A DNA stretch of 64,000 nt from Escherichia virus TH41. Numbering within the stretch: position 1 is the first letter of the stretch; the number at the start of each line of letters is the position of its first letter. The notes under the pieces are model-generated. The model was not told the origin of the DNA. It ran no database searches and saw only the letters and a list, made by a program, of their open reading frames with translations. A program made the translations under genes and the position numbers. The DNA lies in sequence record MT446412.1, one strand, 5' to 3'. This document shows positions 14,367-30,475 of this stretch, piece by piece.

Positions 14367-14660
14367 ATGAAAAAGTTATTAATCGCAGCAATTCTTACCG
14401 TAGCATCATGTGGTACAGCCCCAGTTACTGCTGGGCTTGATAAAGACCTTTGTGAGTGGTCCATGACTGCGGACCAGACTGATGTTGAACACCAGATTTA
14501 TGCTGACATCATGAACATTACTAAACGTGACCACCCAGATATGGTTAAAGAAGTATCTGACCAACTGGCTTCTGGTGACGTTATGCAGTATAACTATGTT
14601 CTGTATTGCGATGCTTCATTTGACAACAGCAAGATTGTTCAATGGGTTACAGGTGAATAA
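14367..14660 (+). CDS. putative lipoprotein (97 aa)
   Basis: Signal peptide with lipobox TVASC. Confidence 0.55.
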   Translation: MKKLLIAAILTVASCGTAPVTAGLDKDLCEWSMTADQTDVEHQIYADIMNITKRDHPDMVKEVSDQLASGDVMQYNYVLYCDASFDNSKIVQWVTGE

Positions 14661-14661
14661 A

Positions 14662-15102
14662 ATGATTAACAGAAATTTAGTTATCAAAAAACTTCGTTGT
14701 AAAAATCAAAATGCACAAGCATACAGGATGTTTTGGAGCGACGAACCCATTCAATACCTGGGTTATTTTCTTGTTGATAGTGATAATAGAATTACGTTTG
14801 CTCATAAACTTCTTAACAAAGAATTAAACCATTGGCAAGAACTTATTGCGGTCAAGTCTAAATTATTTTCGCGCAATACAATGCACCAATTGGTTTATTT
14901 TTTCGCTGACGGTATTCCTGACAAGGTTGAGTTTGATGGGTTTGAATTTAAAGACATCACCCCTGATAATGAATTGAATGACAGTATTGTTAATATGGGT
15001 ATCCCGGGTAAGTACATCAAAAACAGTCTTTTGAAACTTCTGGAAACCCCTGTATATTCAGTTGACGACCAGATTTTTAATGCCTTCATGAAGCGAGATT
15101 AG
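14662..15102 (+). CDS. hypothetical protein (146 aa) with C-terminal DDQIFNAFMKRD tail
   Basis: ATG at 14662 (track ORF 14527 is a GTG-extended version overlapping the lipoprotein); tail shared with next ORF. Confidence 0.55.
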   Translation: MINRNLVIKKLRCKNQNAQAYRMFWSDEPIQYLGYFLVDSDNRITFAHKLLNKELNHWQELIAVKSKLFSRNTMHQLVYFFADGIPDKVEFDGFEFKDITPDNELNDSIVNMGIPGKYIKNSLLKLLETPVYSVDDQIFNAFMKRD

Positions 15103-15103
15103 T

Positions 15104-15463
15104 ATGAGTTATTATAATTTTCTGAATTTTGAACTGGCGAGCAATAATGATGGTAATGCTCATTATGAATTTCGTGAGCCACGGTTTAATCAAGCGATTG
15201 GTTATATTATCGTCAAAGATGATGTTATCATAAAGGCTCGCTCATTTATGGTAATGAATGGACCTTATGAAGATACTCGCGGCTATCCATTTGATAAAAA
15301 GAATGTGCGCGATTGTGCAGCATGGATAACCGGAAACCCCGAAATTGGGGTCATGATATCTACTGAAGCGAATGACATTCTGGAAGGGGTTTGGGCCAAA
15401 GCTCAAGAATCGTCTATTGCTATTGACGACCAGATTTTTAATGCCTTCATGAAACGAGGTTAA
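15104..15463 (+). CDS. hypothetical protein (119 aa) with C-terminal DDQIFNAFMKRG tail
   Basis: ORF; last about 36 nt nearly identical to the 3' end of the preceding gene. Confidence 0.55.
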   Translation: MSYYNFLNFELASNNDGNAHYEFREPRFNQAIGYIIVKDDVIIKARSFMVMNGPYEDTRGYPFDKKNVRDCAAWITGNPEIGVMISTEANDILEGVWAKAQESSIAIDDQIFNAFMKRG

Positions 15464-15464
15464 T

Positions 15465-15686
15465 ATGTTTGTTTTAACTCAATTTTCTAAAGCAACATAT
15501 AGCTACTCTTGTCAATGGGAAGTCTTCATTGATACACCGTCTCCCAAGTATGGAGTTTTCGGACGAGTAACTACACAAGCTTATGTTGCGCGACCAACCA
15601 AACGTCAGATTCGTAAGCTTAAAAAGGCGCATCGCCAACTGATTAAAAGAAGGGAACAATATGAGTGCAATGTGTACGGGCTCTAA
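15465..15686 (+). CDS. hypothetical protein (73 aa, basic C-terminus)
   Basis: ORF starting 2 nt after the previous stop. Confidence 0.45.
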   Translation: MFVLTQFSKATYSYSCQWEVFIDTPSPKYGVFGRVTTQAYVARPTKRQIRKLKKAHRQLIKRREQYECNVYGL

Positions 15687-15852
15687 GATTTCCGTATTCG
15701 AGATTTTTGAAGAATATGAAATCGTGTCGCAAGACCAAGAAGCAATCCATGTTATCGCTGATGATGGTGTTACCTGGATTATTCCGTTGTATCATGAAGA
15801 CACTTATGAAGTGACTGATGCAAATGGTGATAAAGCTGTCTTCGTTGTATAA
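15661..15852 (+). CDS. hypothetical acidic protein (63 aa)
   Basis: ORF overlapping the previous ORF end. Confidence 0.45.
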   Translation: MSAMCTGSKISVFEIFEEYEIVSQDQEAIHVIADDGVTWIIPLYHEDTYEVTDANGDKAVFVV

Positions 15853-15855
15853 ATA
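15848..15855 (+). promoter_or_regulatory. late-promoter-like TATAAATA box
   Basis: Exact TATAAATA 17 nt upstream of a small ORF ATG; overlaps the preceding stop codon. Confidence 0.4.
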
Positions 15856-15871
15856 GCGGAAAGGGGGTGTT

Positions 15872-16039
15872 ATGAAAACATTCAAAGATTTTATCAACGA
15901 AAATATGGTTGCCGGTGATGCAGGTGGAAATCCAACTAATATCGCAACAGGTACCACTTCCGGGGCAGTTGTCAATAAAGGCCCTGAACAAATCCCATCA
16001 AAAAAGCGTAAGAACAAAGACGATAAACCTACAGTATAA
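15872..16039 (+). CDS. small hypothetical protein (55 aa)
   Basis: ATG after GGGGGTG RBS; MKTFKDFINEN...KKRKNKDDKPTV; below the ORF-track size cutoff. Confidence 0.35.
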   Translation: MKTFKDFINENMVAGDAGGNPTNIATGTTSGAVVNKGPEQIPSKKRKNKDDKPTV

Positions 16040-16071
16040 TGGTCCTCCGGGGCCATTGAAATGAGGAAACT

Positions 16072-17100
16072 ATGTCATATATTGATAAAGAATTTGCGGT
16101 TAGAGCTTTATCGTATCAACCACGTTATAGAGAAGTCACCGGGAGCACATTTAAAGCAAACTGTCGTTGCAAGGTTTGTGGGGACTCCCAGAAAGATTCA
16201 CACAAGGCTCGATTCTGGGCGTATACTAATCCGGCTGATGGCGCGGTTTACGTGAAATGTTTTAACTGTGACTACTCCACGCATATAAGCAAATACATAA
16301 AAGAGTTTGAGCCGGATTTACACTGGGAATATATGGTTGAGAAGTATAAGGAGAATGCCTTTGGCAGACAACGTAATGAAGTTGCCGAAACTCCGAAAGA
16401 ACCAGAAAAAACTCCGGTTATCGAAGAGCTTGCTTTTTGTGAAAGACTCGATACTTTACCAGAAGCGCATCCTATAATTAAGTATGTAAAAAGTCGGTGT
16501 ATTCCTAGCAATGTTTGGAACCGGTTATGGTTTACAAACAAATGGCCTGCATTAGTTAACTCCGTTAATCCTGGGACGTATAAGAATGAAACGAATGAAC
16601 CACGCTTGGTTATTCCTATCTTCAACGGCAAAAAAGAAATCGAATCTTTCCAAGGACGAGCTCTTCGCAAAGATGCACCACAAAAATATATCACAATCAA
16701 AGCTCACCCAGAAGCTTCCAAAGTCTATGGTGTAGACAAGATTGATGAGCGCAAGCGCGTGTGGGTAATGGAAGGTCCGATTGATAGTTTGTTTATCCCT
16801 AACAGCATTGCGATAACTGGTGGAACATTGTCATTGGAAGCCGTTCCTTATCCAGAAACCAGAGTATGGGTAATGGACAACGAACCAAGACATCCGGATA
16901 CGATTAAACGTATGAAGAAGCTCGTTGAAGCTGGCGAAGCTGTTATGTTCTGGGACAATGCACCATGGCATACGAAAGACATAAATGAGATGGTTAAATC
17001 AGAAGGAGCAACCCCTGAACAAATCGAATCATATATGGCTGATAACGTTGCCCAAGGATTGATGGCGAGAATGCGACTTTCGAAGTACGCAAAAGTTTAG
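16072..17100 (+). CDS. 61: DNA primase gp61
   Basis: 342 aa as in T4; N-terminal zinc ribbon CRCKVCGDS...CFNCDYS plus TOPRIM-like core. Confidence 0.93.
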   Translation: MSYIDKEFAVRALSYQPRYREVTGSTFKANCRCKVCGDSQKDSHKARFWAYTNPADGAVYVKCFNCDYSTHISKYIKEFEPDLHWEYMVEKYKENAFGRQRNEVAETPKEPEKTPVIEELAFCERLDTLPEAHPIIKYVKSRCIPSNVWNRLWFTNKWPALVNSVNPGTYKNETNEPRLVIPIFNGKKEIESFQGRALRKDAPQKYITIKAHPEASKVYGVDKIDERKRVWVMEGPIDSLFIPNSIAITGGTLSLEAVPYPETRVWVMDNEPRHPDTIKRMKKLVEAGEAVMFWDNAPWHTKDINEMVKSEGATPEQIESYMADNVAQGLMARMRLSKYAKV

Positions 17101-17297
17101 GAAGGGATTCCGGTAAAGTAACCAATAATAGAATGGATATGTTCCATTGTGACCTGAGGTAAGTGCACCCCTTGTGTTGCGGCGATGGGTACAACCAGTA
17201 AGTTCCACAGGAAAACATCAAGAGCTAAAAAGCCCATGATGAGCTTCTTGTCTTTCTTACTGGTTAATTTCCAAATCTGATAGAATAATGTTCCCAT
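17097..17297 (-). CDS. small membrane protein (66 aa), paralog A
   Basis: Antisense ORF convergent on gene 61; GGTGG RBS; TM segment FLWNLLVVPIAATQGVHLP. Confidence 0.5.
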   Translation of the reverse strand: MGTLFYQIWKLTSKKDKKLIMGFLALDVFLWNLLVVPIAATQGVHLPQVTMEHIHSIIGYFTGIPS

Positions 17298-17305
17298 AGT
17301 TCCAC

Positions 17306-17503
17306 CTATATAAGGCCGATTAATGCCAGTGAAACATCTACAACTGATTCGAGCGCGACGACTGGTAATATAACACCATGTGCCAATGCAATAGGGGCAA
17401 CAATGAAATTCCAGAGTAGAACTAAACAGAGTACCGAAAGGACCAGAATCGTTCGCTTACGACTGCCTTTGATGGCTTGAATTAGACTAGATAGTTTTAG
17501 CAT
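17306..17503 (-). CDS. small membrane protein (65 aa), paralog B
   Basis: Strong AAGGAGGA RBS 7 nt upstream; TM segment LLWNFIVAPIALAHGVILP paralogous to the neighbour. Confidence 0.5.
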   Translation of the reverse strand: MLKLSSLIQAIKGSRKRTILVLSVLCLVLLWNFIVAPIALAHGVILPVVALESVVDVSLALIGLI

Positions 17504-18389: not shown

Positions 18390-18397
18390 TATAAATA
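18390..18397 (+). promoter_or_regulatory. late promoter TATAAATA upstream of soc
   Basis: Exact TATAAATA about 30 nt upstream of the soc ATG. Confidence 0.5.
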
Positions 18398-28447: not shown

Positions 28448-30280
28448 ATGATGATTAATAATGAAATTAAAGTACTCTCGGACGTCGAGCATATCAAAAA
28501 ACGTTCCGGGATGTATATTGGTTCCAGTTCAAATGAAGCGCATGAGCGATTCTTGTTTGGTGAATATAAGTCTGTAAGCTATGTTCCTGGTATTGTAAAA
28601 CTGATTGATGAAATTATCGATAACTCTGTTGATGAAGCAATTCGCACCAGTTTTAAATTTGCCAATAAAATTGATGTTCAAATTAAAGATAATCAGATTT
28701 CGGTTTCTGATAATGGTCGTGGTATTCCTCAAGCAATGGTTACAGACCAAAACGGTGAACAAATCCCTGGCCCTGTTGCAGCATGGACTATTCCAAAAGC
28801 CGGTGGCAACTTCGGTGATGATGCTGAACGTAAAACTGGCGGGATGAATGGTGTCGGGTCTTCTCTGACCAATATTTTCTCTGTATTGTTCACCGGGATT
28901 ACCTCTGATGGAGCAAACGAAATTACTGTTAACTGCTCCAACGGTATGGAAAACAAAGGTTGGTCCACCAAGAAATCTAAGGGCAAAGGTACAACTGTTA
29001 TATTTGTTCCAGATTTTAGTCACTTTGAAGAAAATAGTCTGTCCCAGATTTATCTGGATATTACATTGGACCGTTTACAGACTCTCGCGGTTGTTTATCC
29101 GGATATTCAGTTCACCTTTAATGGTAAAAAGGTTGATGGTAATTTCAAGAAGTTCTCCAAGCAATTCGGAACCGAAGTTGTTATCCAGGAAACTGATACA
29201 GTATCAATGGCTTTTACGACCAGCCCGGATGGTTTCCGTCAGTTGACTTATGTCAACAACATTCATACAAAGAATGGCGGACACCACGTTGAATGTGTTA
29301 TGGATGATATCTGTGAACACCTTCAGCCTGCGATTAAGCGCAAATATAAAGGCATCGAGGTGACCAAGGCACGAGTTAAAGAATGCCTCACCATGCTTAT
29401 GTTCATCCGCGATATGAGCAACATGCGATTTGATTCCCAGACCAAGGAGCGATTGACTTCTCCGGCTGGTGAAATTCGAAATCACATTAAGATTGATGCT
29501 AAGAAAATCGCACAAGCTATTCTGAAAAATGAACCGCTGATTATGCCGATTGTTGAAGCTGCATTGGCTCGTAAATTGGCTGCAGAGAAAGCAGCAGAGA
29601 CCAAGGCGAATAAGAAAGCTTCGAAGGCCAAGGTGCAGAAACACATCAAGGCAAACGAATGGGGCAATGATAAGCTGGAAACGACTCTATTCCTGACCGA
29701 AGGGGATTCTGCAACTGGTCCATTTATCAAGGTTCGCGACCGTGAATTGCAAGGTGCTTATCCATTACGTGGTAAGTTTAAAAACACATGGGGTCTGAAA
29801 GCTGTTGAAGTTATGAAGAACGCTGAAGCCTTTGATGTGTGTGCAATTACTGGGTTAACGATTGGACAACCGGCCGAGAATATGAATTACCGAAACATTG
29901 CTATCATGACAGATGCGGATGTGGATGGTGTCGGTAGTATCTATCCATCGTTATTGGCGTTTTTCAGTAACTGGCCAGAGTTGTTCCATGAAGGACGAAT
30001 TCGCTTTGTGAAAACACCTGTTATTATTGCACAGCTCAAAGATAAACAAGAATGGTTCTATTCTCTTCCTGACTATGAAGAAGCTAAGGATAAACTTCCG
30101 AAGCACACCATCCGATATATCAAGGGGCTTGGTTCTCTGGAAGATTCCGAGTACAAACGCGTATTGCTCGAACCGGTATTCGAAGTTGTTCAATTGCCCG
30201 ACAACTGGAAAGAACTGTTCGAAATGCTATTCGGTAAAGATTCCCAGCAGCGTAAAGACTGGATGAATGCGACGCTATAA
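28448..30280 (+). CDS. 39: DNA topoisomerase II large subunit gp39 (GyrB-like), uninterrupted
   Basis: 610 aa; GHKL ATPase and TOPRIM blocks collinear with T-even gp39; no separate gene 60. Confidence 0.93.
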   Translation: MMINNEIKVLSDVEHIKKRSGMYIGSSSNEAHERFLFGEYKSVSYVPGIVKLIDEIIDNSVDEAIRTSFKFANKIDVQIKDNQISVSDNGRGIPQAMVTDQNGEQIPGPVAAWTIPKAGGNFGDDAERKTGGMNGVGSSLTNIFSVLFTGITSDGANEITVNCSNGMENKGWSTKKSKGKGTTVIFVPDFSHFEENSLSQIYLDITLDRLQTLAVVYPDIQFTFNGKKVDGNFKKFSKQFGTEVVIQETDTVSMAFTTSPDGFRQLTYVNNIHTKNGGHHVECVMDDICEHLQPAIKRKYKGIEVTKARVKECLTMLMFIRDMSNMRFDSQTKERLTSPAGEIRNHIKIDAKKIAQAILKNEPLIMPIVEAALARKLAAEKAAETKANKKASKAKVQKHIKANEWGNDKLETTLFLTEGDSATGPFIKVRDRELQGAYPLRGKFKNTWGLKAVEVMKNAEAFDVCAITGLTIGQPAENMNYRNIAIMTDADVDGVGSIYPSLLAFFSNWPELFHEGRIRFVKTPVIIAQLKDKQEWFYSLPDYEEAKDKLPKHTIRYIKGLGSLEDSEYKRVLLEPVFEVVQLPDNWKELFEMLFGKDSQQRKDWMNATL

Positions 30281-30283
30281 ATA
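30276..30283 (+). promoter_or_regulatory. late-promoter-like TATAAATA box
   Basis: Exact TATAAATA overlapping the gp39 stop, about 40 nt upstream of a small ORF. Confidence 0.35.
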
Positions 30284-30286
30284 GAT

Positions 30287-30306
30287 ACGGGAGAATATTC
30301 TCCCGT
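30287..30306. other. perfect 20-nt palindrome
   Basis: ACGGGAGAATATTCTCCCGT is fully self-complementary. Confidence 0.5.
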
Positions 30307-30322
30307 CTTATAGGAGAAGTCC

Positions 30323-30475
30323 ATGAAAAAGTGGTGGGTTACGTTGTCAAATGGCGAATACGGTTATCTGTGGGCCGATACTAAACCCCTGTTTGCATCC
30401 TTTGTCACCATTATGTGCGAGACCTGGGATGGTGAATACTATACCGCGTATGGGCAAGTCTATAAAGTTGAGTAG
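30323..30475 (+). CDS. small hypothetical protein (50 aa)
   Basis: ATG after GGAGAAG RBS; MKKWWVTLSNGEYGYLW...; followed by terminator. Confidence 0.35.
   Translation: MKKWWVTLSNGEYGYLWADTKPLFASFVTIMCETWDGEYYTAYGQVYKVE

What the first reader, a model, noticed from the sequence alone, without database searches (positions are those of the whole stretch)
15848..16039. Late-promoter-driven small ORF inside the early region
An exact TATAAATA at 15848-15855 lies 17 nt upstream of a 55-aa ORF with a GGGGGTG RBS. The product has a Gly/Thr-rich centre and a basic KKRKNKDDK tail. Late expression of a small basic protein in the replication region could indicate a virion-associated or DNA-binding protein.
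Basis: partly seen in the sequence, partly recalled or inferred. Interest (0 to 1): 0.4.

Follow-up and report, generated by a model that had tools for sequence, protein, structure and literature searches.

The report
Capsid-mimic head-targeted peptide gene 61.1
The small gene is the T4-like phage gene 61.1, and its product looks like a head-targeting tag fused to a free copy of the first 30 residues of the mature major capsid protein, so it is probably a small processed head component rather than a replication protein.

Summary
TATAAATA lies at 15848-15855, GGGGGTG at 15863-15869, and a 55-aa ORF at 15872-16039. The window comes from a T4-like phage of the VR7/SP18 group. The ORF is the orthologue of T4 gene 61.1, which sits directly upstream of primase gene 61 in all 63 related loci examined.

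The protein has three parts:
- Residues 1-10 (MKTFKDFINE) match the capsid targeting sequence of T4-type internal head proteins, including the I-x-E prohead-protease site.
- Residues 11-41 are homologous to the start of mature capsid protein gp23* (profile E 1.7e-11).
- The tail holds a K/R cluster that is conserved across the family.

The exact late box is kept in three sub-lineages whose flanking sequence differs. Its spacing resembles that of the window's own late genes (soc, t, 34, 36). T4 lacks the box, and its 61.1 transcript is classed as early. A conserved hairpin follows the ORF.

Best reading: a small gene with its own late promoter whose product enters the prohead core and is cut after Glu10 by gp21. 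Packaging, cleavage and promoter activity are inferred, not shown. No paper in the library makes the targeting-sequence or gp23 link, although database names hint at the gp23 similarity.

The parts
15661..15852 (+). Upstream 63-aa ORF, homologue of VR7ORF036c / RB69 ORF033c (phrog_3249). Its stop codon TAA lies inside the TATAAATA box.
15848..15855 (+). TATAAATA, a candidate gp55-type late promoter (-13 to -6 element).
   Evidence: Conserved in three sub-lineages. Geometry matches the boxes before soc, t, 34 and 36 in the same window. Consensus and position taken from PMC1524935.
15861..15861 (+). Predicted late transcription start, 6 nt after the box. It would give an 11-nt leader. This is an inference.
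   Evidence: Box-to-start spacing from PMC1524935, applied to the sequence.
15863..15869 (+). Shine-Dalgarno-like GGGGGTG, ending 2 nt before the ATG.
15872..16039 (+). Gene 61.1 orthologue, 55 aa plus stop.
   Evidence: phrog_1823 E 6.6e-32. Annotated as 61.1 in VR7 and SP18. 70% identical to T4 gp61.1. Third-position substitution bias.
15872..15901 (+). Codons 1-10, MKTFKDFINE: a propeptide like the capsid targeting sequence, ending in the I-N-E gp21 cleavage motif.
   Evidence: T4 IPII and IPIII start MKTYQEFIAE, and IPI starts MKTFKEF.... VR7 ip6 starts MKTYQEFINE. Determinant residues 4, 7, 8 and 10 come from PMC9026906. The pattern is unique in the window.
15902..15994 (+). Codons 11-41: a paralogue of the N-terminal segment of mature gp23* (gp23 residues 66-96, part of the N-terminal 66-105 region that forms the N-fist and extended arm).
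   Evidence: phmmer against PDB, gp23 residues 58-96, E 6.5e-5. Family profile E 1.7e-11. BLASTP 44% identity over 45 aa. Role of the gp23 segment from PMC9546572.
15995..16036 (+). Codons 42-55: a tail carrying the K/R cluster (PSKKRKNKDDKPTV).
   Evidence: The K/R cluster is conserved across the family, while net charge is not.
16037..16058 (+). 9-bp hairpin with a UCCG tetraloop, overlapping the stop codon. It has no U-run here.
   Evidence: dG -17.8 kcal/mol, z -2.75. A hairpin at the same position with different stem sequences occurs in most lineages, often with a U-run.
16072..17100 (+). Primase gene 61 (context). It lies directly downstream of 61.1 in every relative examined.
   Evidence: phrog_47 E 2.2e-93. 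Synteny in 63 of 63 loci.

Best explanation
The ORF is the orthologue of T4 gene 61.1, a small gene found just upstream of the primase gene in all T4-like phages examined.

Its product has three modules:
1. A 10-residue N-terminal propeptide that matches the capsid targeting sequence (CTS) of T4-type internal head proteins. It ends in the L/I-x-E motif cut by the prohead protease gp21.
2. A stretch of about 30 residues homologous to the first residues of the mature major capsid protein gp23*. This segment lies inside the immature shell, then moves out on expansion as part of the N-terminal region that forms the N-fist and extended arm.
3. A short Lys/Arg cluster.

In this phage lineage the gene has its own TATAAATA late promoter and is followed by a stable hairpin. 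Together they form a small late transcription unit embedded in the early-gene strand, and the gene is probably also read through from upstream early promoters.

Proposed mechanism:
- The peptide is made while heads assemble.
- Its CTS recruits it to the scaffolding core of the prohead.
- gp21 cuts it after Glu10.
- A 45-residue basic peptide whose N-terminus mimics that of gp23* is left in or on the head.

Shown here: the sequence features, the homology, and the conservation of box, hairpin and synteny. Inferred: promoter activity, packaging, cleavage, and what the mature peptide does.
For: Identity of the gene:
- phrog_1823 E 6.6e-32.
- VR7 and SP18 annotate the matching ORF as 61.1.
- Primase lies directly downstream in 63 of 63 loci, even where primase identity is only 40%.

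CTS-like propeptide:
- T4 IPII and IPIII start MKTYQEFIAE|A, and IPI starts MKTFKEFTST...ITE|A.
- T4 gp61.1 starts MKTFKEFIKE|D, and the window protein starts MKTFKDFINE|N.
- In VR7, the closest annotated relative, ip6 starts MKTYQEFINE|T and ip9 starts MKTFNELFNE|S. ip9 also has TATAAATA starting 20 nt before its ATG.
- Published determinants are residues 4 and 7 for targeting and 8 and 10 for processing (PMC9026906). The window protein has F4, F7, I8 and E10.
- gp21 cuts after L/I-X-E (PMC9026906).
- A six-frame scan for MK[TS][FY].[ED][FV] over about 197 kb found only known internal-protein genes and 61.1 orthologues. The scan covered the window, parts of VR7 and T4, and part of 44RR.
- Glu10 is at least 90% conserved, with a hydrophobic residue two positions before it, in an alignment that includes both short and long family members.

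gp23 homology:
- The single sequence against PDB gives E 6.5e-5 on gp23 residues 58-96.
- The family profile gives E 1.7e-11.
- BLASTP gives 44% identity over 45 aa.
- The alignment puts E10|N11 exactly on the gp23 maturation site E65|A66.
- AlphaFold2 predicts the module to be disordered on its own (pLDDT below 50). gp23 residues 66-105 are likewise disordered in unexpanded heads (PMC9546572).

Late promoter:
- The box is exact, with a 16-nt gap, similar to the t-like gene (18 nt) in the same window.
- It is kept in three sub-lineages with different flanks and is enriched against control ORF starts.

Precedent: T4 ipII and ipIII transcripts are classed as early although the proteins are head components. 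Early transcription of T4 61.1 therefore does not argue against a head role.
Against: - There is no direct evidence of packaging or cleavage. T4 gp61.1 protein was not detected in the time-resolved proteome (PMC9697503 Table S2). I also found no virion proteomics that mention it.
- T4 lacks the late box and the hairpin.
- Most T4-like phages encode a long form of about 155 aa. There the CTS-like motif is internal, after a helical N-domain, not N-terminal.
- The invariant linkage to primase is not explained by a head role.
- The gene lies outside the known internal-protein loci.
- A 45-residue peptide might simply escape through the capsomer pores, as scaffold fragments do (PMC9546572).
- The CTS match covers only 10 residues. 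It may partly reflect shared descent from the gp23 cleavage-site region rather than a retained function.
Confidence: 0.5

Rival explanations
1. Cytoplasmic mimic or decoy. The peptide stays in the cytoplasm and competes with gp23 for a partner that recognises the gp23 cleavage-site and N-terminal segment. Candidate partners are gp21, the scaffold, a chaperone, or a host defence sensor of capsid protein. It would modulate head assembly or blunt an abortive-infection trigger.
For: - The homology covers both sides of the gp23 maturation site.
- T4 transcribes 61.1 early, before gp23 is made.
- The neighbours are dmd, sp and 61.2 paralogues. From my own knowledge, these genes counter host defences or mediate exclusion.
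- The module is predicted to be disordered, as expected for a linear mimic.
Against: - No defence system is known to sense gp23 residues 57-96. From my own knowledge, the Gol peptide recognised by Lit lies further downstream in gp23 and overlaps only the weakly similar end of the module.
- A pure decoy would not need the CTS determinants at positions 4 and 7.
- A late promoter is not required for a factor that must act early.
Confidence: 0.2
2. Replication accessory. gp61.1 works with the primase or helicase, for example as a small DNA- or protein-binding cofactor using its Lys/Arg cluster. The capsid-like sequence would be an evolutionary relic.
For: - Primase lies directly downstream in 63 of 63 loci, while the surrounding genes vary.
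- Helicase is adjacent in KVP40-type phages.
- T4 transcribes the gene early.
- The K/R cluster is conserved.
Against: - The conserved residues are exactly those shared with gp23 and the CTS/cleavage motif. A relic would not keep them.
- There is no similarity to any known replication factor in Pfam, NCBIfam or PDB.
- The hairpin or terminator between 61.1 and 61 separates the two genes at the RNA level in most lineages.
Confidence: 0.12
3. The TATAAATA is not a working promoter. This is independent of what the protein does. The box would arise from the upstream stop codon (GTA TAA ATA) in AT-rich DNA, and 61.1 would be expressed only from upstream early or middle promoters, as in T4.
For: - T4 has no box, and its 61.1 transcript is early.
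- The count of boxes in the window is not clearly above chance.
- Two of the eight boxes precede no ORF.
- Many lineages have only xxTAAATA.
- Nolan et al. found predicted late promoters only upstream of orthologues of T4 late genes in five genomes (PMC1524935).
Against: - The exact 8-mer is kept in three sub-lineages although the adjoining bases and even the upstream gene differ.
- 11 of 28 lineages have at most 1 mismatch, against 19 of 232 control ORF starts.
- The spacing equals that of the t-like and ip9 boxes.
- From established knowledge, the 8-mer is nearly sufficient for gp55-dependent initiation on replicating T4 DNA.
Confidence: 0.25

Closest known systems
T4 gene 61.1 (gp61.1, conserved hypothetical protein; phrog_1823; long form phrog_2086)
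   Same: It is an orthologue: 70% identity to the T4 protein, the same size, and the same position directly upstream of primase gene 61. Nolan et al. 2006 list 61.1 among the few ORFs conserved in six T4-like genomes with no assigned function (PMC1524935).
   Different: This lineage adds an exact late box and a hairpin that T4 lacks. Two extra small ORFs lie between 61.2 and 61.1. The tail is net basic here and acidic in T4.
T4-type internal head proteins (IPI, IPII, IPIII, Ip6-Ip10) with an N-terminal capsid targeting sequence
   Same: The first 10 residues match, including targeting residues 4 and 7 and processing residues 8 and 10. The protein is small. Transcription can be both early and late, and VR7 ip9 has the same late-box geometry.
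   Different: The gene is not in the hypervariable internal-protein loci and is conserved in all T4-like phages examined rather than variable. The mature part is a copy of the capsid protein N-terminus, not a folded anti-restriction domain. Packaging has never been shown. Long-form relatives carry the motif internally.
Major capsid protein gp23, N-terminal region around the maturation site (residues about 57-101)
   Same: Clear sequence homology, with the Glu-X scissile bond in register. Both segments are disordered when not assembled.
   Different: It has none of the HK97-fold domains. The database names 'major capsid domain-containing protein' and 'major capsid protein' given to some orthologues overstate the relationship.
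T4 late promoters that lie on the early-gene strand
   Same: An exact TATAAATA lies a short distance before a Shine-Dalgarno sequence and ATG, on the strand used by early genes. The soc box at 18390 in this window is an example.
   Different: It is not conserved in T4 itself, and no transcript mapping exists for this phage group.

Membership tests
gp61.1 family (phrog_1823 / phrog_2086) | Significant sequence match to the family profile | tested here: met
   phrog_1823 E 6.6e-32 over residues 1-52, and phrog_2086 E 2.8e-16. tblastn finds 1458 phage records.
gp61.1 family (phrog_1823 / phrog_2086) | Located directly upstream of primase gene 61 on the same strand | tested here: met
   Window: ORF ends at 16039 and primase starts at 16072. 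The same arrangement holds in 63 of 63 related loci.
CTS-bearing internal head proteins of T4-like phages | N-terminal propeptide of 10-19 residues resembling MKTYQEFIAE | tested here: met
   Window: MKTFKDFINE. T4 IPII and IPIII: MKTYQEFIAE. IPI: MKTFKEF... VR7 ip6: MKTYQEFINE. The pattern occurs nowhere else in the window in six frames.
CTS-bearing internal head proteins of T4-like phages | Targeting determinants at residues 4 and 7, processing determinants at residues 8 and 10 (L/I-x-E) | tested here: met
   F4, F7, I8 and E10 are present. Determinants are from PMC9026906. This is a match by sequence only.
CTS-bearing internal head proteins of T4-like phages | Physically packaged into the prohead and cleaved by gp21 | not testable with these tools
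   Needs virion or prohead proteomics, or fusion-packaging assays. The T4 protein was not detected in whole-cell proteomics.
CTS-bearing internal head proteins of T4-like phages | Encoded in the variable internal-protein loci (near e/denV and 57B) | tested here: not met
   VR7 internal-protein genes lie at 56.7-57.6 kb and 67.9-69.5 kb. 61.1 lies beside primase at about 18 kb.
CTS-bearing internal head proteins of T4-like phages | Basic mature protein | tested here: inconclusive
   The mature peptide has pI 9.7 in the window and 5.0 in T4.
gp55-dependent T4 late promoter | TATAAATA at -13 to -6 | tested here: met
   Exact 8-mer at 15848-15855. Consensus from PMC1524935.
gp55-dependent T4 late promoter | Conserved upstream of the orthologous gene in relatives | tested here: inconclusive
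   Exact in the VR7, JS98/IME281-like and 175-kb sub-lineages and in one 245-aa form. There are 1-2 mismatches in many long-form lineages, and the box is absent in T4-type phages.
gp55-dependent T4 late promoter | gp55/gp33/gp45-dependent transcript start about 6 nt downstream | not testable with these tools
   No transcript data exist for this phage group. T4, which lacks the box, shows an early 61.1 transcript.
Major capsid protein gp23 (HK97 fold) | HK97-fold A, P, E-loop and insertion domains | tested here: not met
   The protein has 55 residues, and homology is limited to gp23 residues 57-101. No Pfam match.
Intrinsic (rho-independent) terminator | GC-rich hairpin followed by a U-run | tested here: not met
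   The hairpin at 16037-16058 is present, but GAAAUGAGG follows it and the scan did not call it. Several other lineages do have the U-run.

The most novel reading that the evidence does not exclude
The processed gp61.1 peptide could be an unrecognised, universally conserved head component: a free-standing copy of the start of the gp23* N-terminal segment.

It might occupy or regulate the binding sites that this segment normally fills. Candidate sites are those where a neighbouring gp23 segment is missing, next to gp24 pentons or the portal. Alternatively it could time capsid expansion or Soc binding.

A corollary concerns evolution. [quoted passage not shown]
Probability: 0.12. Interest if true: 0.75.

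Novelty: new member of a known kind. Interest (0 to 1): 0.5.

Why it matters
Gene 61.1 is one of very few small ORFs kept by all T4-like phages examined, from coliphages to Vibrio and Aeromonas phages, and it has had no assigned function for decades.

Reading it as a head-targeting tag, a prohead-protease site and a copy of the capsid protein N-terminus turns it into a directly testable hypothesis. T4 genetics, fusion-packaging assays and existing cryo-EM maps can all address it.

If confirmed:
- T4 head assembly, one of the best-studied assembly pathways, would gain a conserved component.
- The evolutionary origin of the capsid targeting sequence, now used to load foreign cargo into T4 heads, would have an explanation.

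If refuted, the mimicry of gp23 would point to a decoy or regulatory role. That would still be new.

The late promoter on its own is a minor, lineage-specific detail.

Tried and rejected
- Pfam and NCBIfam scans of the 55-aa protein gave nothing.
- Pfam and PDB sequence searches of the long form gave nothing.
- Literature searches for gp61.1, and for 61.1 combined with late promoter, gp23 or CTS, found only gene lists and a statement that its function is unknown.
- I asked whether the N-domain of the long form is encoded elsewhere in the window as a split gene. No significant tblastn hit appeared.
- One alignment ran upstream in the 61.1 frame (QSMLSLMMVLPGL against RSMKRMMSTVPGL). I rejected it as chance. 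It crosses two stop codons and lies inside the conserved upstream ORF in another frame, and RB69-type phages have both that ORF and the complete long form.
- I asked whether the long-form N-domain is related to the gp23 propeptide. tblastn finds one place per genome and never gp23.
- AlphaFold2 of the long form followed by Foldseek found no informative fold neighbours in PDB, and only family members in BFVD.
- A 2982-aa bacterial repeat protein (P0022) in the representative search is a false positive. It comes from summed weak matches to cadherin-like repeats.
- I tried to test whether the 61.1 N-terminus co-varies with the internal-protein CTS in Aeromonas phage 44RR. No CTS-pattern ORFs occur in 45-95 kb of that genome, so the test could not be made.
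- MAFFT alignment of the 61.1-61 intergenic hairpins did not keep the 3' arms in register. I therefore ran no formal covariation count, and the covariation is described from individual folds only.
- The sigma-70 promoter and terminator scan around the ORF showed nothing above shuffles.
- The 137-aa antisense ORF 15643-16056 is treated as spurious, because substitutions follow the + frame.

Full report
**1. What is in the sequence**

- TATAAATA lies at 15848-15855 on the + strand.
- GGGGGTG lies at 15863-15869.
- The ATG is at 15872.
- The ORF 15872-16039 encodes MKTFKDFINENMVAGDAGGNPTNIATGTTSGAVVNKGPEQIPSKKRKNKDDKPTV.

The box overlaps the stop codon of the preceding 63-aa ORF (GTA TAA ATA). 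A 342-aa ORF starts 32 nt downstream of the stop.

**2. Where the window comes from and what the ORF is**

Megablast places the region in T4-like phages of the VR7/VR20/VR25/SP18/RZ group (Gaprivervirus) at 94-97% identity. In VR7 the matching ORF is annotated 61.1. Its neighbours are 61.2, a 61.4-like ORF, ORF036c, primase gene 61, gene 56 and soc.

The protein hits phrog_1823 (E 6.6e-32) and the C-terminal part of the longer phrog_2086. Both have unknown function. T4 gp61.1 reads MKTFKEFIKEDMVAGDSGGNPENISIGTTSGAVVNKGPEQIPKKKKEESKEKEE.

Nolan et al. 2006 name 61.1 among the few ORFs conserved in T4 and five other T4-like genomes without a function (PMC1524935). tblastn finds it in 1458 phage records.

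In 63 loci from IMG/VR the primase gene follows directly on the same strand in every case, even where primase identity is only about 40%. Substitutions against relatives fall on third codon positions of the + frame, so the ORF is a real gene and the overlapping antisense ORF is not.

**3. The late box**

The motif count alone is not convincing: 8 in the window against 4.5 expected, and 5 of 100 shuffles reach 8. Placement is more telling.
- Six of the eight boxes lie 16-39 nt before an ORF start on the same strand.
- Four of those ORFs I recognise, from my own knowledge of the T4 proteins, as orthologues of late genes: soc, the gp34-like and gp36-like fibre genes, and the holin t-like gene.
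- The t-like gene has an 18-nt gap, close to the 16 nt here.

The published rule puts the box at -13 to -6 from the transcript start (PMC1524935). That predicts a start near 15861 and an 11-nt leader containing the Shine-Dalgarno sequence.

The exact 8-mer is also present upstream of 61.1 in two other sub-lineages whose flanking bases differ:
- JS98/IME281-like: GTAATATAAATAAGGCCAGGAGCCTATG.
- A 175-kb group with a different upstream gene: GGTCTATAAATAGCCCGAGGTGACTATG.

Across 28 distinct lineages, 11 have at most one mismatch in the -45..-9 stretch, against 19 of 232 control ORF starts in the same loci. Lineages are related, so this is indicative rather than a probability.

Against the promoter:
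- T4-type phages have no box. There, 61.2 abuts 61.1, and T4 has no TATAAATA at all between genes 56 and uvsX.
- The T4 61.1 transcript is classed as early, and the protein was not detected (PMC9697503 Table S2).

The late promoter is therefore plausible but lineage-specific and unproven.

**4. The protein is related to the major capsid protein**

tblastn with the 55-aa protein gave a second hit per genome in the major head protein gene.
- phmmer against PDB sequences finds only T4 gp23: E 6.5e-5, gp23 residues 58-96.
- A profile of 28 family members raises this to E 1.7e-11.
- BLASTP gives 44% identity over 45 residues with T4 gp23 and 42% with VR7 gp23.

The alignment is TFKDFINE|NMVAGDAGGNPTNIATGTTSGAVVNKGP against AFGSFLTE|AEIGGDHGYNATNIAAGQTSGAVTQIGP. 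The bar is the gp23 maturation site: gp21 removes the 65 N-terminal residues (PMC9546572).

According to the same paper, gp23 residues 66-105 behave as follows:
- They are disordered and probably inside the shell, in contact with the scaffold, in the unexpanded head.
- After expansion they form the extended arm and N-fist, which make contacts within and between capsomers.
- The N-fist and the I-domain linkers form the Soc binding sites.
- Head-length mutations A66D, A94V and G97S map to this region.

Automated names such as 'major capsid domain-containing protein' show the similarity has been picked up by pipelines. I found no paper that discusses it.

**5. The N-terminus is a capsid targeting sequence**

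Translating the T4 internal protein genes gives:
- IPII: MKTYQEFIAE|ARVG...
- IPIII: MKTYQEFIAE|ASVV...
- IPI: MKTFKEFTSTTTPVSTITE|ATL...

The 61.1 proteins compare as follows:
- T4 gp61.1 starts MKTFKEFIKE|D.
- The window protein starts MKTFKDFINE|N.
- Other short forms start MKTYKEFIKE or MKTYKEFVNE.

In VR7 the internal protein genes start MKTYQEFITE, MKTYQEFINE, MLTYQEFITE and MKTFNELFNE. ip9, the last of these, has a TATAAATA starting 20 nt before its ATG.

The review of Black's work supplies three points (PMC9026906):
- The first 10 residues of IPIII suffice for incorporation into the head.
- Residues 4 and 7 matter for targeting, and residues 8 and 10 for processing.
- gp21 cuts after L/I-X-E.

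The window protein has F4, F7, I8 and E10.

A six-frame scan for MK[TS][FY].[ED][FV] found only 61.1 in the 64-kb window. It found only internal-protein genes and 61.1 orthologues in 57 kb of VR7 and 26 kb of T4, and nothing in 50 kb of Aeromonas phage 44RR.

In the family alignment Glu10 is at least 90% conserved, and a hydrophobic residue sits two positions before it. The alignment includes long forms.

**6. Family architecture**

Most T4-like lineages encode a long form of about 143-166 aa. These include RB69-type, Klebsiella, Citrobacter, Enterobacter, Acinetobacter, Aeromonas and Vibrio phages. The gp23-like module and the K/R cluster lie at the C-terminus, preceded by ...KEIFKELPLFE|DMVAGD.

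The short form lacks the N-domain. It occurs in T4, this lineage, JS98-like phages and some Aeromonas phages.

AlphaFold2 on a 34-sequence alignment gives two regions:
- A modestly confident helical N-domain (pLDDT 74-87 for residues about 10-70).
- A disordered gp23-like module (pLDDT below 50).

Fold and sequence searches give no functional lead for the N-domain, and it never matches gp23. Cleavage at the conserved hydrophobic-x-Glu site would release essentially the same peptide, of about 45 residues, from both forms.

Net charge is not conserved: the mature peptide has pI 9.7 here and 5.0 in T4. A K/R cluster is.

**7. The hairpin after the ORF**

Positions 16037-16058 fold into a 9-bp stem with a UCCG loop (dG -17.8 kcal/mol, z -2.75). 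A hairpin occupies the same place between 61.1 and 61 in most lineages. The stems differ but still pair:
- GGTCC/GGGCC
- GGCTCTA/TAGAGCC
- GGCCTTA/TAAGGCC
- GGGGTC/GACCCC
- GGACTC/GAGTCC

In several lineages a U-run follows, giving a terminator-like site. T4-type phages lack the hairpin. In this window no U-run follows.

Box, ORF and hairpin together look like a compact transcription unit for 61.1. The hairpin may also limit read-through into the primase gene.

**8. Most likely mechanism and its rivals**

Best-supported reading (confidence about 0.5): gp61.1 is a small protein of the internal-protein type. It would be made late from its own promoter, in addition to read-through from upstream, taken into the prohead core by its CTS, and cut after Glu10 by gp21. 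The product would be a 45-residue peptide whose N-terminus copies that of gp23*.

Shown here: the sequence modules, the homology, and the conservation of box, hairpin and synteny.

Inferred: promoter activity, packaging, cleavage, and the fate of the mature peptide.

Rivals:
- A cytoplasmic mimic of the gp23 segment that competes for a partner or a host sensor (0.2).
- A primase- or helicase-linked accessory protein, suggested by the invariant synteny (0.12).
- Independently of protein function, a non-functional box (0.25).

The invariant linkage to primase remains unexplained under the preferred reading.

**9. Comparison with known families, and verdict**

The ORF is a member of the gp61.1 family. 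It meets the sequence-level criteria of CTS-bearing internal proteins. It fails the locus criterion, and the defining experimental criteria could not be tested. It is not a major capsid protein, because it shares only the N-terminal segment.

The flagged observation is therefore an annotated but uncharacterised conserved gene. The added value is a specific, testable assignment that I could not find in the literature held here. Interest is moderate (0.5). The most novel reading still open is that the peptide is an unrecognised conserved head component and an evolutionary link between gp23 and the CTS (probability about 0.12).

Noticed in passing
window 16037-16058, and the 61.1-61 intergenic region of L026, L032, L037, L041, L043, L044, L054, L059, L060, L066, L073, L074, L079, L082-L085: A GC-rich hairpin sits right after the 61.1 stop codon. 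It is usually preceded by T(G/A)ATATAATGG and is conserved in position, with stems that differ yet still pair. Many lineages add a U-run (terminator-like), this window has a UCCG tetraloop and no U-run, and T4-type phages lack it. It may limit read-through into the primase gene or stabilise the 61.1 mRNA 3' end.
   Followed up: partly
window 14527-15102 and 15104-15463 (+): Two adjacent ORFs (191 and 119 aa) end in the same motif, DDQIFNAFMKR[DG]. The C-terminus of T4 gp61.2 is similar (IDDQIFNAFMNRG). They look like tandem 61.2-type paralogues upstream of the 61.1 cluster.
   Followed up: no
window 17097-17297 and 17306-17503 (-): Two tandem small ORFs (66 and 65 aa) lie on the opposite strand between primase gene 61 and gene 56. 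Both have similar hydrophobic segments (LLVVPIAATQGVHLPQV and FIVAPIALAHGVILPVV). VR7 annotates only one such ORF at the equivalent place (VR7ORF033w).
   Followed up: no
window 30276-30334 (+): Another exact TATAAATA is followed by a perfect inverted repeat (ACGGGAGAATATTCTCCCGT), a Shine-Dalgarno sequence and a 50-aa ORF (MKKWWVTLSNGEYGYLW...). It could be a second small late unit in the early region.
   Followed up: no
RB69 reference genome NC_004928, 17455-17783 (hit H104): The long-form 61.1 of RB69-type phages is annotated as two ORFs (RB69ORF032c plus gp61.1) in the RB69 reference, and it matches in two pieces. Close relatives have one 155-aa ORF. This suggests a frameshift or sequencing error in the reference, or a natural split.
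   Followed up: partly
L048 (IMG/VR contig 3300033696_000004), and proteins P0041 and P0045: Some relatives carry a form of about 245 aa. In it the gp23-like module and K/R cluster are followed by a further C-terminal domain of about 95 residues. L048 also has an exact TATAAATA starting 32 nt before its start codon.
   Followed up: no
VR7 locus L087, 6728-7648 and 17896-19471: In VR7, several ORFs annotated as hypothetical (ORF127c, ORF153c, ORF156c) start with the same capsid targeting sequence as the annotated internal-protein genes. They are probably additional internal head proteins.
   Followed up: no
BFVD hits A0A411BBR2 (672 aa) and A0A1B1IT15 (913 aa): Two much larger viral proteins align with the long-form 61.1 model at 35-36% identity. 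They may be fusions of the 61.1 N-domain with a neighbouring gene such as helicase or primase. Their sequences could not be retrieved with the tools.
   Followed up: no
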